Below, piece by piece: positions 23,836 to 26,776 of a DNA stretch of 64,000 nt. The stretch comes from an uncultured Candidatus Saccharibacteria bacterium (GTDB lineage Bacteria; Patescibacteriota; Minisyncoccia; Phycocordibacterales; UBA918): contig CAYGKO010000002.1 in NCBI GenBank assembly GCA_964350735.1, forward strand, positions 26,134 to 90,133. The letters run 5' to 3'. The position numbers were made by a program, and so were the translations under genes. How positions within the stretch are numbered: the first letter of the stretch is position 1; each line of letters starts with the position of its first letter. The notes beneath the pieces were generated by a model. It was not told where the DNA came from. It saw only the letters and a list, made by a program, of their open reading frames with translations, and did no database searches.

Positions 23836-24174
23836 ATGTTTTTGAAAATATTACAAATTGGATATTTAGTTTTCACTGGACAGCTTTTATTGCTGTTTGC
23901 AATTCGTAGTTTCCCGGCAACTGGTCTTCTTGAAGATTTAGCAGGAATACAAATGATAGTTTGGCTTATTTTCACACCATTTATTCTGATCACATCAGGT
24001 TATCGGCATTATAAAAGAATAAACTCAAGAATTGATAGCTTAGCATTCGTTATCTCAGTATGCTCATTCGTCTACTTATTTTTTATATTTTATTATGCTT
24101 ATAATTCTGGAGGTATAGTGGAAGAGTTTGACTACAGTCAAGAGAATATACCCTCAATACCAACGTCTATCTAA
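23836..24174 (+). CDS. small membrane protein (112 aa, three TM) inserted between atpA and atpG
   Basis: Hydrophobic ORF with visibly lower GC than the flanking atp genes. It starts 3 nt after the atpA stop and ends 3 nt before atpG. Confidence 0.5.
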   Translation: MFLKILQIGYLVFTGQLLLLFAIRSFPATGLLEDLAGIQMIVWLIFTPFILITSGYRHYKRINSRIDSLAFVISVCSFVYLFFIFYYAYNSGGIVEEFDYSQENIPSIPTSI

Positions 24175-24176
24175 AT

Positions 24177-25079
24177 ATGGCCCTCAAACAAATTAAAAAC
24201 AAAATAGTTTCGACCAAAAAGACCGGTAAAGTTACCAAGGCGATGGAGTCGGTGTCTGCGGTTAAGATGCGGAAAAGTCAGCAGCGCGCGTTTGCTGGCC
24301 GCCCGTACATCCATGCAGCACTACGAATTCTGTCGCAGCTAGCAACTTCACCAGATGGTCTCCAGCACCCACTGACGCAAAAGCGGACTGCAGGGAAGCG
24401 TTTGGCAGTGGTGGTTACTAGTGATAAAGGTTTGGCCGGGAGTGTGAACTCTGCGGTGCTTAAAAAAGCCTCTGAAACAATTGCTAAAGAAGGTGACTTG
24501 GAATTGATCTGCGTTGGACGCAAGGCAGTCGAGTTTGCTAGGCGGGAGAAGCAAGTACTGCTTGGTGAGTACACCAATATCTCAGATGAGGTCACGATCG
24601 AAGATGTGTATGAAATTGCTCAAACACTTGTCAATGCTTTTGAAGGCGGTGAGTATAAAGAGGTAGAAATCATCTATCAAAATTTCCTGTCTACGTTTGA
24701 GCAGGAGCCGACTCGTCGAACAGTGTTACCGCTCGACCCAGCGGAAATCCACTACATCATGCGAGGTATCCGTCCTAAGAAGGGAGTTGGTAGCGAGGAT
24801 GTAGAGCCAGCGGTAGAATCAACGGTGTATACCATCGAGCCATCACCAGAGGAGGTGCTGGAGTCACTCGTGCCGCGCTTAGTGCAGATTATGGTCTACC
24901 ACGCACTCTTGGAGAGCAAGGCCTGCGAACACTCTGCTCGAATGGTAGCCATGAAGAACGCCACCGATAAGTCTAAAGAGATGGCCAAGTCATTGACACT
25001 ACTCTTCAACAAACAGCGACAAGCAGCCATTACCGCTGAAGTGAGTGAAATCACCGGTGGTATTGAAGCCATGAAGTAG
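24177..25079 (+). CDS. atpG: F0F1 ATP synthase subunit gamma
   Basis: N-terminal IKNKIVSTKKTGKVTKAMESVSAVKMRK and C-terminal ITAEVSEITGGIEAMK are gamma-subunit hallmarks. Confidence 0.9.
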   Translation: MALKQIKNKIVSTKKTGKVTKAMESVSAVKMRKSQQRAFAGRPYIHAALRILSQLATSPDGLQHPLTQKRTAGKRLAVVVTSDKGLAGSVNSAVLKKASETIAKEGDLELICVGRKAVEFARREKQVLLGEYTNISDEVTIEDVYEIAQTLVNAFEGGEYKEVEIIYQNFLSTFEQEPTRRTVLPLDPAEIHYIMRGIRPKKGVGSEDVEPAVESTVYTIEPSPEEVLESLVPRLVQIMVYHALLESKACEHSARMVAMKNATDKSKEMAKSLTLLFNKQRQAAITAEVSEITGGIEAMK

Positions 25080-25172
25080 TTCTAAGTGGCAGAGGGCTTT
25101 CTAAGCCTTCACCACTCAGTGGTACTGAGTCATTATTACAAACACACTTATCAATTCATTATTACAAACATT

Positions 25173-26564
25173 ATGAGTACTGAAACACAAAAAGGAATCA
25201 TCACCCAAATCATTGGCCCTGTTGTCGATGTGCACTTTGCTGAAGGTGGTGTACCAGAGCTTTTGACTGCGCTTAAGGTGCAAAATGGTGAGGTCACCAT
25301 TACGCTTGAAGTAGCACAACACGTTGGTCTTGACCGAGTGCGAGCTATTTCGATGCAGGATACCCAAGGTCTGGAACGAGGGCTTGAAGTAACAAATACG
25401 GGCGGGCACATTTCCGTACCAGTTGGTGAGAAGTCACTCGGGCGACTCTTTAACGTGCTTGGTGAGACGCTGGATGGCGGAACTGATCTCGGAACCGAAA
25501 ATCTCCGTGGTATTCACCAAGAAGCTCCAGCTTTCACTGACCAGTCTACCAAGACTGAGGTATTTGAAACCGGAATCAAGTCAGTAGACCTACTTGCTCC
25601 GTTTATTAAAGGAGGTAAGGTAGGGCTCTTTGGAGGAGCGGGAGTAGGGAAGACCGTACTTATCCAGGAGCTGATCAACAACGTAGCGACTAATCACGGT
25701 GGATACTCAGTATTTGCTGGTGTAGGAGAGCGCGTACGTGAAGGGAATGACTTGTACCACGAAATGAAAGACTCAGGTGTGCTTGATAAAACTGCGCTCG
25801 TGTTTGGGCAGATGAATGAAGTACCGGGTGCGCGAGCGCGAGTAGGACTGACTGGTCTTACGATGGCGGAATCACTCCGCGATGCTGATGGAGGAAAGGA
25901 TGTACTGTTCTTCATGGACAACGTCTTCCGCTTCACGCAAGCAGGACAGGAGGTGTCTTCACTCCTTGGGCGAGTTTCGTCTGCAGTAGGATACCAACCA
26001 ACGCTAGCGGAAGAAATGGGGAAGATGCAGGAGCGAATTACTTCTACTAAGTCTGGATCAATTACTTCTGTACAAGCGGTATACGTGCCAGCGGACGACC
26101 TGACTGACCCAGCGCCAGCAACAACGTTCTCTCACCTCGACTCCACCGTAGTGCTTTCGCGTCAGTTAGCATCACTCGGTATTTACCCAGCAATCGACCC
26201 ACTTGAAAGTAACTCAACTGCGCTTGATCCGACCATTGTTGGTGAAGAGCACTACCGGGTTGCTCAAGGAGTAAAGCTTGTTCTGCAACGTTACAAAGAC
26301 CTACAAGACATTATCGCGATCCTTGGTATCGAAGAACTTTCAGAAGAAGACAAGCAGACTGTCTACCGAGCCCGAAAGATTCAAAAATTCATGAGTCAGC
26401 CGTTCTCAGTAGCCGAAGTCTTCACTGGTGCTCCCGGTAAGTACGTGAAGCTCGAAGACACTATCCAAGGCTTCGCCGAAATCCTCGACGGCAAGCATGA
26501 CGACAAGAACGAGCAAGACTTTTACATGAAGGGAGGAATCAGTGAGGTTACTAAGTCAGAATAA
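25173..26564 (+). CDS. atpD: F0F1 ATP synthase subunit beta
   Basis: Walker [11 protein letters not shown] and the DELSEED-like segment EELSEEDK. I chose the start at MSTETQKG (25173) over the track start at 25086. Confidence 0.95.
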
Positions 26565-26776
26565 TGAAAATTGTTGCAATCTTCGTAGTGACTATTGTAG
26601 TTCTTGTAGGATATACAATTTACACAAATCCACAGGAATGCAACCACGGTGAAGGAATGCCTGGTGATCCATACAAAAGTTGTAACTGCTTAGGAGTGTG
26701 GGTTTCTGATGGAAAACCAACACCAGCCATTCCAGGAGCAATATCGGGTGGTCTGTGCTACGGATTAACTAATTAA
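26564..26776 (+). CDS. small Cys-containing membrane-anchored protein (70 aa) inserted between atpD and atpC
   Basis: N-terminal TM (IVAIFVVTIVVLVGYTIY) plus four Cys residues. Overlaps the atpD stop. Confidence 0.4.
   Translation: MKIVAIFVVTIVVLVGYTIYTNPQECNHGEGMPGDPYKSCNCLGVWVSDGKPTPAIPGAISGGLCYGLTN

What the first reader, a model, noticed from the sequence alone, without database searches (positions are those of the whole stretch)
23836..26776. ATP synthase operon interrupted by two AT-rich small membrane-protein genes
Otherwise canonical atpBEFHAGDC. A 112-aa 3-TM ORF sits between atpA and atpG, tightly packed with 3-nt spacers. A 70-aa TM plus 4-Cys ORF sits between atpD and atpC. Both are visibly AT-richer than the flanking highly conserved atp genes. 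They could be novel accessory or assembly subunits; atpH and atpC are shortened here. They could also be recent insertions such as small toxins or phage-derived genes.
Basis: partly seen in the sequence, partly recalled or inferred. Interest (0 to 1): 0.55.

Follow-up and report, generated by a model that had tools for sequence, protein, structure and literature searches.

The report
Passenger small-membrane genes inside atp operon
Two tiny orphan membrane-protein genes sit inside the ATP synthase operon of an uncultivated Patescibacteria bacterium; related genomes hold many different, unrelated small genes at the same three gene junctions, so these are most likely passengers and not new ATP synthase parts.

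Summary
Both ORFs are present as described. ORF112 (23836-24174) has 3 predicted TM helices and lies 2 nt from atpA and 2 nt from atpG. ORF70 (26564-26776) has one TM segment plus 4 Cys and overlaps the atpD stop as TAATG.

Neither ORF has a homologue in 5.8 billion or 1.84 billion proteins, in metagenome or viral contigs, or in Pfam, NCBIfam, PHROGs or PDB. The exception is a short Cys motif that ORF70 shares with one Paceibacteria protein encoded next to atpC.

In 132 related atp operons (AtpG 52-73% identical), three junctions are repeatedly occupied by small co-oriented genes: atpA|atpG, atpG|atpD and atpD|atpC. These 67 ORFs fall into 49 sequence clusters. More than half are membrane proteins; others are NUDIX and HicA/HicB. 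Occupancy changes at least 12-21 times per junction on an AtpG tree. The atpF|atpH and atpH|atpA junctions never expand.

Short delta and epsilon subunits occur across the whole lineage whether or not junction ORFs are present. This argues against accessory subunits.

ORF70 has native codon usage. ORF112 is the compositional outlier of the window (GC 0.32) and is probably young.

Best reading: these are passenger genes expressed by read-through transcription and translational coupling. A covarying RNA hairpin upstream of atpD was also found.

The parts
20208..23833 (+). atpB, atpE, atpF, atpH, atpA (20208-20984, 21074-21340, 21395-21841, 21847-22227, 22262-23833). There is no atpI upstream.
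   Evidence: Pfam ATP-synt_A, ATP-synt_C, ATP-synt_B, OSCP (C-terminal half only), ATP-synt_ab. Spacers are 89, 54, 5 and 34 nt.
23836..24174 (+). ORF112: orphan 112-aa protein with three predicted TM helices, a basic loop (YRHYKRINSR) between helices 2 and 3, and an acidic C-terminal tail. GC 0.322.
   Evidence: Shuffle test 7/20000. AF2 predicts 3 helices, pLDDT 68. No homologue found. Lowest GC in the window, and codon score no better than the other frames.
24177..25079 (+). atpG (gamma subunit)
   Evidence: Pfam ATP-synt, 1.4e-87.
25069..25142 (+). Conserved structured RNA element in the atpG-atpD spacer. It has a variable-sequence hairpin P1 (about 25085-25116) and a short conserved hairpin P2, CTCAG-TGGTA-CTGAG (about 25116-25129). 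It begins 6 nt after the atpG stop.
   Evidence: Alignment of 41 loci: 13 of 16 pairs show compensatory changes. Covariance model R1 hits the window once at 76 bits, and in relatives essentially only in this spacer (one weak 28-bit hit elsewhere, L040). No Rfam family matches.
25173..26564 (+). atpD (beta subunit). The likely true start is ATG 25173, not GTG 25086.
   Evidence: Pfam. Homologues align from MSTETQ, and the upstream 93 nt is the conserved non-coding hairpin.
26564..26776 (+). ORF70: 70-aa protein with an N-terminal TM anchor (residues 3-20) and a roughly 45-aa domain with 4 Cys (C26, C40, C42, C65). Motif CN.G.GMPG..Y..C.C.G. Its start overlaps the atpD stop (TAATG).
   Evidence: The motif is shared with L091 7451-7915 (11/20 identical, pairwise E 6e-6; phmmer E 0.004 among 11,908 ORFs). 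Codon score 0.817, above all 57 window genes; other frames score 0.705 and 0.607.
26783..27034 (+). atpC (epsilon subunit, beta-sandwich domain only, 83 aa)
   Evidence: Pfam ATP-synt_DE_N. NCBIfam epsilon models match only profile positions about 1-80. Relatives are 77-101 aa.
27081..28246 (+). Two further family-less membrane ORFs directly after atpC: 27081-27665 (194 aa, GC 0.37) and 27722-28246 (174 aa). They may belong to the same variable 3' zone.
   Evidence: No significant hit in Pfam, NCBIfam or PHROGs; the only listing is a sub-threshold 16-bit NCBIfam match for the 174-aa ORF. In L091 the ORF70-like protein lies in this post-atpC position.

Best explanation
ORF112 and ORF70 are two unrelated, lineage-restricted small membrane-protein genes. 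They ride as passengers inside the F1 half of an otherwise standard atpBEFHAGDC operon of a Patescibacteria (Paceibacteria/Parcubacteria-type) bacterium.

They occupy two of three junctions (atpA|atpG, atpG|atpD, atpD|atpC) that in this lineage repeatedly gain and lose small, co-oriented genes of many unrelated families.

They have no detectable promoter or terminator of their own. I infer that they are made from the atp transcript by read-through and by termination-reinitiation coupling (2-nt spacers, TAATG overlap). That arrangement keeps atpG and atpC translation coupled despite the insert.

Predicted products (inferred): ORF112 is a 3-TM protein with N-terminus in, C-terminus out and an acidic external tail. 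ORF70 is a single-pass anchor that displays a small 4-Cys domain outside the cell. They are cell-envelope proteins, not stoichiometric ATP synthase subunits.

ORF70 looks native and belongs to a rare, unnamed Cys-motif family that is also encoded beside atpC elsewhere. ORF112 looks young: either foreign or born from T-rich spacer DNA.

Shown: the ORFs and their statistics, their absence from relatives, recurrent and diverse junction occupancy, purifying selection on other junction ORFs, and the lineage-wide short delta and epsilon.

Inferred: co-transcription, coupling, topology and passenger status.
For: - Both ORFs are orphans: only self hits in 5.8e9 clustered proteins and in 1.84e9 representatives searched by full phmmer. 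Nothing was found in metagenome or viral contigs.
- The organism and 132 related loci came. Gaps over 250 nt occur in 20/125 atpA|atpG, 42/100 atpG|atpD and 20/87 atpD|atpC junctions, but in 0/86 atpF|atpH and 0/93 atpH|atpA junctions.
- In 75 unique expanded gaps, the longest + strand ORF fills at least 60% of the gap in 48 cases, against 3 on the - strand. At least one TM segment is present in 41 against 4.
- The 67 occupant ORFs form 49 clusters, 39 of them singletons. They include NUDIX, HicA and a HicB-like protein.
- Occupancy changes at least 14, 21 and 12 times on an AtpG tree.
- Occupant families persist at the same junction and are under purifying selection (dN/dS 0.11 and 0.25) but evolve fast: 32-50% identity where AtpG is 86-95% identical.
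- Delta and epsilon are short in all relatives.
- ORF statistics are, the tight spacers, and the absence of promoter or terminator signal above chance.
- ORF70 has native codon usage and ORF112 is an outlier.
- The L031/L032 spacer plus cargo is far more similar than the flanking atp genes, which shows that cargo segments recombine.
Against: - There are no expression, translation or proteomic data.
- No relative is closer than 73% AtpG identity, so neither window ORF could be tested for purifying selection. Fast-evolving homologues would be undetectable at that distance.
- ORF112's codon score (0.711) is no better than its other frames (0.734, 0.716), so its coding status rests on ORF length, exact gap filling and a well-formed TM pattern.
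- T-rich DNA yields hydrophobic ORFs easily.
- The tree is NJ on one protein. The TM counts are a simple hydropathy scan.
- A strain-specific functional link to ATP synthase cannot be excluded by comparative data alone.
Confidence: 0.6

Rival explanations
1. Organism-specific accessory or assembly subunits of the ATP synthase. ORF112 would contact the Fo/c-ring or stator, ORF70 would bind externally, and together they might compensate for the truncated delta and epsilon.
For: Both are encoded inside the operon with coupling-type spacing. Both are membrane proteins. There is no atpI in the operon. An ORF70-like protein is also encoded beside atpC in L091.
Against: Neither ORF is present in any of 132 related operons. 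Relatives with all junctions tight (for example L004: 9, 36, 2 nt) have equally short delta and epsilon. The same junctions carry NUDIX, HicAB and dozens of unrelated families. There is no Pfam match to ATP-synt_I, ATPase_gene1 or any other family even at E up to 1.
Confidence: 0.08
2. One or both are spurious ORFs: non-coding spacer DNA that happens to be open. This applies mainly to ORF112.
For: ORF112 has no homologues. It has the lowest GC in the window, GC1 is only 0.37, and its codon score is no better than the other frames. AT/T-rich sequence encodes hydrophobic residues by default.
Against: A 112-codon open frame in that gap occurs in 7 of 20000 shuffles, and the other five frames carry 7-11 stops. 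The ORF fills the gap to within 2 nt on both sides. Charge distribution follows the positive-inside rule (sequence). In relatives 16 of 16 expanded atpA|atpG gaps are filled by a + strand ORF, against almost none on the - strand. Measurable junction ORFs are under purifying selection. ORF70 has the best codon score in the window and a conserved motif.
Confidence: 0.12
3. Selfish or mobile cargo: small membrane toxins, toxin-antitoxin parts, or phage-derived genes recently inserted.
For: HicA/HicB-like modules occupy the atpD|atpC junction in L009, L068/L069 and L070. ORF112 is compositionally foreign-looking. Cargo segments recombine between close relatives.
Against: There is no match to toxin, antitoxin or phage families in Pfam, NCBIfam or PHROGs (best PHROGs E 0.028), and none in viral contigs. 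There is no partner gene, and antisense promoter signal is not above chance. No integrase or transposase was found among the neighbours scanned. ORF70 has native codon usage. There are no flanking repeats or paralogues in the window.
Confidence: 0.05
4. Origin variant for ORF112: it was not inserted but arose in place (de novo gene birth) from an expanded T-rich spacer. Selection then kept the frame open so that ribosomes continue to atpG.
For: It is a strict orphan. It has low GC, a T-over-A skew on the coding strand (+0.12, against -0.14 and -0.15 for atpA and atpG) and no frame-specific codon adaptation. There are 39 singleton families among the junction ORFs, most of them TM. The ORF fills the gap exactly. 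The tendency of T-rich non-coding DNA to encode TM segments is established knowledge from work on de novo genes in yeast (my own knowledge, not checked here).
Against: No intermediate (non-coding spacer of similar sequence) was found in any relative. The closest relatives have either tight junctions or different ORFs. This cannot be distinguished from transfer from an unsampled donor.
Confidence: 0.15

Closest known systems
AtpI / AtpZ (Pfam ATP-synt_I PF03899, ATPase_gene1 PF09527): small membrane proteins encoded in bacterial atp operons
   Same: A small multi-TM protein encoded within an atp operon and not part of the catalytic core. This operon lacks atpI.
   Different: AtpI and AtpZ lie upstream of atpB and are widely conserved. 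ORF112 lies between atpA and atpG, matches neither family even at E up to 1, and is absent from all 132 relatives.
Integration hot spots / variable islets flanked by core genes (general concept in bacterial genomics; my own knowledge)
   Same: Fixed positions between conserved genes hold different, unrelated accessory genes in different genomes, with many gains and losses. There is evidence for recombination of the cargo segment.
   Different: Here the slots are inside a single essential, translationally coupled operon. The cargo is nearly always one co-oriented small gene, mostly a membrane protein, packed to within a few nucleotides. No integrase or tRNA target is involved in the window.
Integron gene-cassette arrays (promoterless ORF + attC hairpin, expressed from an upstream promoter)
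   Same: Promoterless small ORFs are expressed from an upstream promoter. In relatives (L007, L057, L024/L093) the atpG-atpD spacer holds tandem ORF-hairpin units.
   Different: The window ORFs have no hairpin next to them (2-6 nt spacers). The hairpin is a single resident element of the atpG-atpD spacer even when no ORF is present. It carries many G.U pairs on the mRNA strand and scores far lower on the other strand, which points to an RNA role. No IntI-type gene was seen.
Lineage-specific small membrane proteins of CPR/Patescibacteria (reported as abundant in CPR protein-family surveys; my own knowledge)
   Same: Small, TM-rich, family-less and fast-evolving.
   Different: Their recurrent placement inside the F1 half of the atp operon was not found described in the literature searched.
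HicAB type II toxin-antitoxin modules
   Same: They occupy the same atpD|atpC junction in several relatives.
   Different: ORF70 and ORF112 show no similarity to HicA, HicB or any TA family.

Membership tests
F1Fo ATP synthase operon (atpBEFHAGDC) | All eight core subunits present in canonical order | tested here: met
   Pfam matches for a, c, b, delta, alpha, gamma, beta and epsilon, in that order.
AtpI (PF03899) / AtpZ (PF09527) | Sequence match to the family profile | tested here: not met
   hmmscan of ORF112 and ORF70 at E up to 1 lists neither family. NCBIfam gives none.
AtpI (PF03899) / AtpZ (PF09527) | Position upstream of atpB and conservation across related operons | tested here: not met
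   ORF112 lies between atpA and atpG, and ORF70 between atpD and atpC. Both are absent from 132 related loci.
Novel ATP synthase accessory subunit (generic) | Co-occurrence with the complex across the lineage, or linkage to the shortened delta/epsilon | tested here: not met
   Delta is 123-131 aa and epsilon 77-101 aa in all relatives regardless of junction content. Junction cargo is heterogeneous.
Novel ATP synthase accessory subunit (generic) | Physical association with F1Fo | not testable with these tools
   This needs purification or cryo-EM. A single-sequence AF2 model of ORF112 has only pLDDT 68, and no multimer prediction was possible.
Integron gene cassette | attC-type hairpin recombination site directly 3' of the ORF | tested here: not met
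   Only 2 nt and 6 nt follow ORF112 and ORF70. The only hairpin element in the window is at 25069-25142 and does not adjoin either ORF.
Integron gene cassette | IntI-type tyrosine recombinase and attI nearby | tested here: inconclusive
   The ten neighbouring ORFs scanned are housekeeping or family-less. The whole 64-kb window was not scanned.
Type II toxin-antitoxin (HicAB and others) | Profile match to a toxin or antitoxin family, and a two-gene module | tested here: not met
   There are no such hits for either ORF. Each is a single gene between atp genes. Relatives do carry HicA plus a HicB-like gene at atpD|atpC.
Type I membrane toxin | Short hydrophobic peptide with an overlapping antisense RNA | tested here: inconclusive
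   ORF112 is 112 aa with 3 TM helices, which is long for this class. Promoter-like sites on the - strand are not above the shuffle expectation. No transcript data are available.
Phage-derived gene | Match to phage protein families or viral contigs | tested here: not met
   PHROGs gives no hit for ORF112 and E 0.028 for ORF70. There is no relative in IMG/VR contigs.
Unnamed TM + Cys-motif family (ORF70 type) | Hydrophobic anchor followed by C-N-x-G-x(0,1)-G-M-P-G-x2-Y-x2-C-x-C-x-G and a further distal Cys | tested here: met
   The motif is shared by ORF70 and L091 7451-7915. Looser C..CxCxG variants occur in L007 11116-11331 and L091 8483-8734. A strict regex hit only these 3 of 11,908 ORFs, and all 3 lie next to atpC.
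Rfam RNA families (for the atpD-leader hairpin) | Covariance-model match at gathering threshold | tested here: not met
   Only a tRNA was found in the window.

The most novel reading that the evidence does not exclude
The three F1 junctions of the atp operon in Paceibacteria may work as a dedicated capture or birth platform for small envelope genes. New promoterless ORFs would be acquired by recombination through the conserved atp flanks, or born from T-rich spacer, and expressed at once by coupling to the cell's most strongly expressed operon. In the atpG-atpD spacer they would be organised as repeated ORF-hairpin units around a covarying RNA element that insulates or processes each unit. ORF112 would be a very young product of this platform, and ORF70 an older, domesticated one. 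Some of these products might modulate the ATP synthase or the membrane around it.
Probability: 0.15. Interest if true: 0.75.

Novelty: new variant of a known kind. Interest (0 to 1): 0.5.

Why it matters
Essential, stoichiometrically tuned operons such as atp are usually thought to resist interruption. In this lineage, three specific junctions of that operon tolerate a fast turnover of small, mostly membrane-protein genes and may even favour it.

If expression is confirmed, this gives a natural system for three questions:
- How new small proteins are born or captured and immediately expressed.
- How translational coupling is kept across inserts.
- What the large pool of orphan membrane proteins does in the reduced, probably host-dependent CPR bacteria.

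For annotation, it warns against naming such ORFs as ATP synthase subunits from context alone. The covarying hairpin before atpD is a candidate new cis-regulatory RNA of the atp mRNA.

Tried and rejected
- Homology searches for both ORFs found nothing beyond self. This covered the word-indexed 5.8e9 set, a profile of the ORF70-like sequences, full phmmer on 1.84e9 representatives with a concatenated query, metagenome contigs, viral contigs, Pfam, PHROGs and NCBIfam, PDB sequences, and paralogue or DNA self-similarity in the window.
- The exact-sequence contig look-up failed. The cluster look-up shows singleton clusters on one 224,815-bp contig.
- I looked for closer relatives to compute dN/dS on the window ORFs. 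The best AtpG identity was 73% in the genome scan and 70% in the metagenome scan, so this was not possible.
- Weak TM-TM BLAST matches of ORF112 to L006 and L022 junction ORFs (E 2e-4 to 3e-3 without composition correction) disappeared under phmmer with composition correction. I rejected them as compositional.
- L007's 71-aa TM+7Cys ORF looked like ORF70 by eye, but BLASTP finds no alignment. I kept it only as a loose motif resemblance.
- I considered an attC-like reading of the hairpin. It is disfavoured by strand-specific G.U pairs and its single resident copy.
- I considered an insertion scar around ORF112 (TAAAAATG / TAAATATG). It is too short and too constrained by stop and start signals to interpret.
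- A mosaic L031/L032 with an identical core was not found; the loci are about 95% identical throughout, and only the spacer plus cargo stands out.
- The promoter and terminator scan showed nothing above chance.
- Literature searches found no description of this pattern.
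Full report
OBSERVATION. The window carries a complete F-type ATP synthase operon on the + strand: atpB 20208-20984, atpE 21074-21340, atpF 21395-21841, atpH 21847-22227, atpA 22262-23833, atpG 24177-25079, atpD ending at 26564, and atpC 26783-27034. All eight genes have clear Pfam matches. Two extra ORFs interrupt the operon, and neither matches any family. ORF112 (23836-24174) is separated by only 2 nt from the atpA stop and 2 nt from the atpG start. ORF70 (26564-26776) starts on the last base of the atpD stop (TAATG) and ends 6 nt before atpC.

ORF112 has three hydrophobic helices: 3 by a hydropathy scan and helices 2-25, 30-55 and 60-90 in a single-sequence AF2 model with mean pLDDT 68. 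Its loop between helices 2 and 3 is strongly basic and its C-terminal tail is acidic, which fits an N-in/C-out topology by the positive-inside rule (inference). ORF70 has one N-terminal hydrophobic segment and Cys at positions 26, 40, 42 and 65. A stop-free run as long as ORF112 was reached in 7 of 20000 shuffles of its gap. For ORF70 the figure was 472 of 20000.

COMPOSITION. The window GC is 0.435 and the atp genes range from 0.40 to 0.49. ORF112 has GC 0.322, the lowest of all ORFs of at least 100 aa in the window, with GC1 of only 0.37. ORF70 (0.408) is indistinguishable from atpC (0.401). A CAI-like score against all other window genes puts ORF70 above all 57 genes (0.817, against 0.705 and 0.607 in its other frames). 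ORF112 scores third from the bottom (0.711), no better than its other frames. The AT-richer description therefore holds for ORF112 but is only relative to atpD for ORF70. ORF70 looks native and ORF112 looks atypical.

ORGANISM AND RELATIVES. A scan with AtpG returned 52 loci from species-representative genomes and 80 from metagenomes. Where labelled, nearly all are Patescibacteria, Paceibacteria, Parcubacteria, Kaiserbacteria or Nomurabacteria MAGs. AtpG identity is 52-73% and no closer relative exists in these collections.

ORPHAN STATUS. Neither ORF has any homologue beyond itself in any of the following:
- 5.8 billion clustered proteins
- 1.84 billion representatives searched exhaustively with phmmer
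- metagenome contigs and viral contigs
- PHROGs and NCBIfam and PDB sequences
- all six-frame ORFs of the 132 loci and the window

There is one exception. ORF70's motif C-N-H-G-E-G-M-P-G-D-P-Y-K-S-C-N-C-L-G matches C-N-T-G-G-M-P-G-G-T-Y-Q-K-C-D-C-W-G in a 154-aa multi-TM protein encoded directly after atpC in metagenome locus L091. The match is 11/20 identical, with pairwise E 6e-6 and phmmer E 0.004 among 11,908 ORFs. A strict regular expression for the motif hit only three of the 11,908 ORFs. All three are on the atp strand and next to atpC.

THE LINEAGE-WIDE PATTERN. I mapped all eight atp genes in the 133 loci and measured the spacers. The atpF|atpH and atpH|atpA spacers never exceed 27 and 111 nt. 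In contrast, atpA|atpG exceeds 250 nt in 20 of 125 loci, atpG|atpD in 42 of 100, and atpD|atpC in 20 of 87.

A strand control shows that these expansions are mostly coding. In 75 unique gaps of at least 250 nt, the longest + strand ORF fills at least 60% of the gap in 48 cases, against 3 on the - strand. It contains at least one TM segment in 41 cases, against 4. By junction, 16 of 16 atpA|atpG gaps, 23 of 35 atpG|atpD gaps and 9 of 18 atpD|atpC gaps are filled by such an ORF. None of the 5 atpE|atpF gaps is.

The 67 junction ORFs fall into 49 sequence clusters, 39 of them singletons. Named domains among them are NUDIX (atpA|atpG in L012, L060, L070, L130), HicA toxin with a HicB-like UPF0150 partner (atpD|atpC in L009, L068/L069, L070), and a sub-threshold (24 bits, below the Pfam cutoff) nucleoside deoxyribosyltransferase-like match. 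Each family that recurs is always at the same junction.

Where pairs allow it, junction membrane ORFs are under purifying selection (dN/dS 0.11 and 0.25). They diverge very fast, at 32-50% identity where AtpG is 86-95% identical. On an AtpG neighbour-joining tree, occupancy changes state at least 14, 21 and 12 times at the three junctions. The outgroup-like loci with the lowest identity are tight at all junctions. The window groups with L001, L057 and L003. Their atpA|atpG junctions hold a different soluble 109-aa ORF, a 63-aa 1-TM ORF (related to one in L016), and nothing, respectively.

Two close relatives, L031 and L032, are about 95% identical overall. They differ at only 6 of 750 positions across the atpG-atpD spacer and its cargo ORF, while the adjacent atpG and atpD sequences differ by 6-9%. 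This shows that the cargo segment was recently exchanged by recombination.

WHAT THIS MEANS FOR THE TWO ORFs. The accessory-subunit idea predicts conservation, and it predicts a link to the shortened delta and epsilon. Neither holds. Delta is 123-131 aa and epsilon 77-101 aa in every relative, including those with all junctions tight. The slots also accept enzymes and toxin-antitoxin pairs. The toxin and phage labels have no support from family or viral searches.

The best-supported reading is that ORF112 and ORF70 are passenger genes in two of three permissive junctions of the F1 half of the operon. No promoter-like or terminator-like signal exceeds the shuffle expectation in the operon. With 2-nt spacers and a TAATG overlap, they are most likely translated by termination-reinitiation from the atp mRNA, which also preserves coupling to atpG and atpC (inference from known coupling mechanisms).

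ORF70 is probably a real, native gene of a rare Cys-motif family. It would be anchored in the membrane with a small external domain that has two possible disulfides or a metal site (inference). ORF112 is probably a real but young gene. Its origin may be foreign or in place from T-rich spacer, and the two cannot be separated with present sampling. A spurious ORF remains possible for ORF112, at about 0.1.

SIDE FINDING IN THE SAME INTERVAL. The 93 nt between atpG and the true atpD start (ATG 25173) hold a structured element at 25069-25142. It consists of a hairpin P1 whose sequence varies but whose pairing is kept, and a short conserved hairpin P2. In an alignment of 41 loci, 13 of 16 predicted pairs show compensatory double changes. 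G.U pairs are frequent on the mRNA strand.

A covariance model built from this alignment finds one copy in the 64-kb window (76 bits, against 21 bits on the opposite strand). In the 131 other loci all strong hits lie in this spacer; the single exception is a weak 28-bit hit in L040. Rfam has no match. Inserted ORFs in that spacer lie upstream of the hairpin. Four loci have tandem arrangements: ORF-hairpin-ORF-hairpin in L007 and L057, and hairpin-ORF-hairpin in L024 and L093. The paired hairpins in L007 and L057 are near-identical apart from compensatory changes. This looks like an mRNA processing, stability or insulation element and not a DNA recombination site, but that is inference.

It also shows that the mechanical atpD start at GTG 25086 is wrong. 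Relatives carry another conserved element of about 150 nt in the atpE-atpF spacer, which the window lacks.

COMPARISON WITH KNOWN SYSTEMS. The nearest named things are the following:
- AtpI and AtpZ. Membership was tested and not met.
- Integration hot spots between core genes. The logic is the same, but here the slots lie inside one essential operon and hold single co-oriented small genes.
- Integron cassette arrays. There is a resemblance in relatives' atpG-atpD spacer only. The defining attC site and integrase are not met or not found in the window.
- The general pool of orphan small membrane proteins in CPR bacteria.

Literature searches found no description of this atp-operon pattern.

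VERDICT. The accessory-subunit interpretation is not supported. The insertion interpretation is supported in general form for the junctions as a class and for ORF112, but not for the toxin or phage labels, and not as a recent event for ORF70. On its own the pair of ORFs is ordinary orphan cargo. The recurrent, junction-specific turnover of small genes inside the atp operon across a CPR class, together with the covarying atpD-leader hairpin, is moderately interesting and appears undescribed.

Noticed in passing
window 25069-25142 (+): A conserved two-hairpin RNA element lies in the atpG-atpD spacer. In 41 loci, 13 of 16 pairs show compensatory changes, and G.U pairs occur on the mRNA strand. 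It occurs once in the window, and in relatives essentially only in this spacer (one weak 28-bit hit elsewhere, L040). It is not in Rfam.
   Followed up: yes
window 25086 vs 25173: The longest-ORF start of atpD (GTG 25086, 492 aa) would translate through the conserved hairpin. Homologues start at ATG 25173 (463 aa).
   Followed up: yes
L007 8906-9705; L057 2096-2844; L024 8918-9358; L093 2354-2794: Tandem ORF-hairpin units occupy the atpG-atpD spacer, each small TM ORF followed by its own hairpin copy. The copies in L007 and L057 are near-identical apart from compensatory changes, while the L024 copies differ. The layout is cassette-like and the mechanism is unknown.
   Followed up: partly
atpE-atpF spacers of about 50 loci (e.g. 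L031 5371-5538); L032 10878-11027 (atpD-atpC) and an inverted second copy in L032 5205-5538: A second conserved structured-looking element of about 150 nt contains an internal covarying hairpin (e.g. CCGTAC-loop-GTACGG). It is present in most relatives' atpE-atpF spacer and at least once in an atpD-atpC spacer. The window lacks it (its spacer is 54 nt).
   Followed up: partly
atpB-atpE spacers of about 30 loci (e.g. L052 5006-5085): The spacer sequence upstream of atpE is conserved at nucleotide level across many relatives. The window's 89-nt spacer did not match at E<1e-3.
   Followed up: no
L031 vs L032, positions 8839-9588: The spacer plus its 105-aa 3-TM cargo ORF differ at 6 of 750 nt. 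The flanking atpG and atpD sequences differ by 6-9% and the loci by about 5% overall. This points to recent recombination of the cargo segment.
   Followed up: partly
L009 10810-11242; L068 4192-4434; L070 4271-4516: A HicA toxin and a HicB-like (UPF0150) antitoxin are inserted between atpD and atpC of an essential operon.
   Followed up: partly
L012 1263-1670, L060 2278-2682, L070 1162-1569, L130 186-593: A 135-aa NUDIX hydrolase is conserved between atpA and atpG in one sub-clade, at 60-74% identity.
   Followed up: partly
window 27081-27665 and 27722-28246 (+); L091 7451-7915 and 8483-8734: More family-less multi-TM ORFs lie directly downstream of atpC. In L091 two of them carry the ORF70-type C..CxCxG motif, so the 3' end of the operon is also a variable membrane-protein zone.
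   Followed up: partly
window 21847-22227 and 26783-27034; all loci: Delta is only 123-131 aa and matches only the C-terminal half of the OSCP profile. Epsilon is 77-101 aa and lacks the C-terminal helical domain. Both hold throughout this lineage. This has implications for stator attachment and for epsilon-type inhibition, which I did not explore.
   Followed up: partly
L016 7794-7994 and L057 970-1161: The same 63-66 aa 1-TM plus coiled-coil family (E 1e-11) sits at atpA|atpG in two loci that are far apart on the AtpG tree. This indicates either an old occupant with many losses or lateral exchange.
   Followed up: partly
window 19858-19930 (-): A single tRNA gene lies on the opposite strand about 280 nt upstream of atpB. 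There is no atpI.
   Followed up: no
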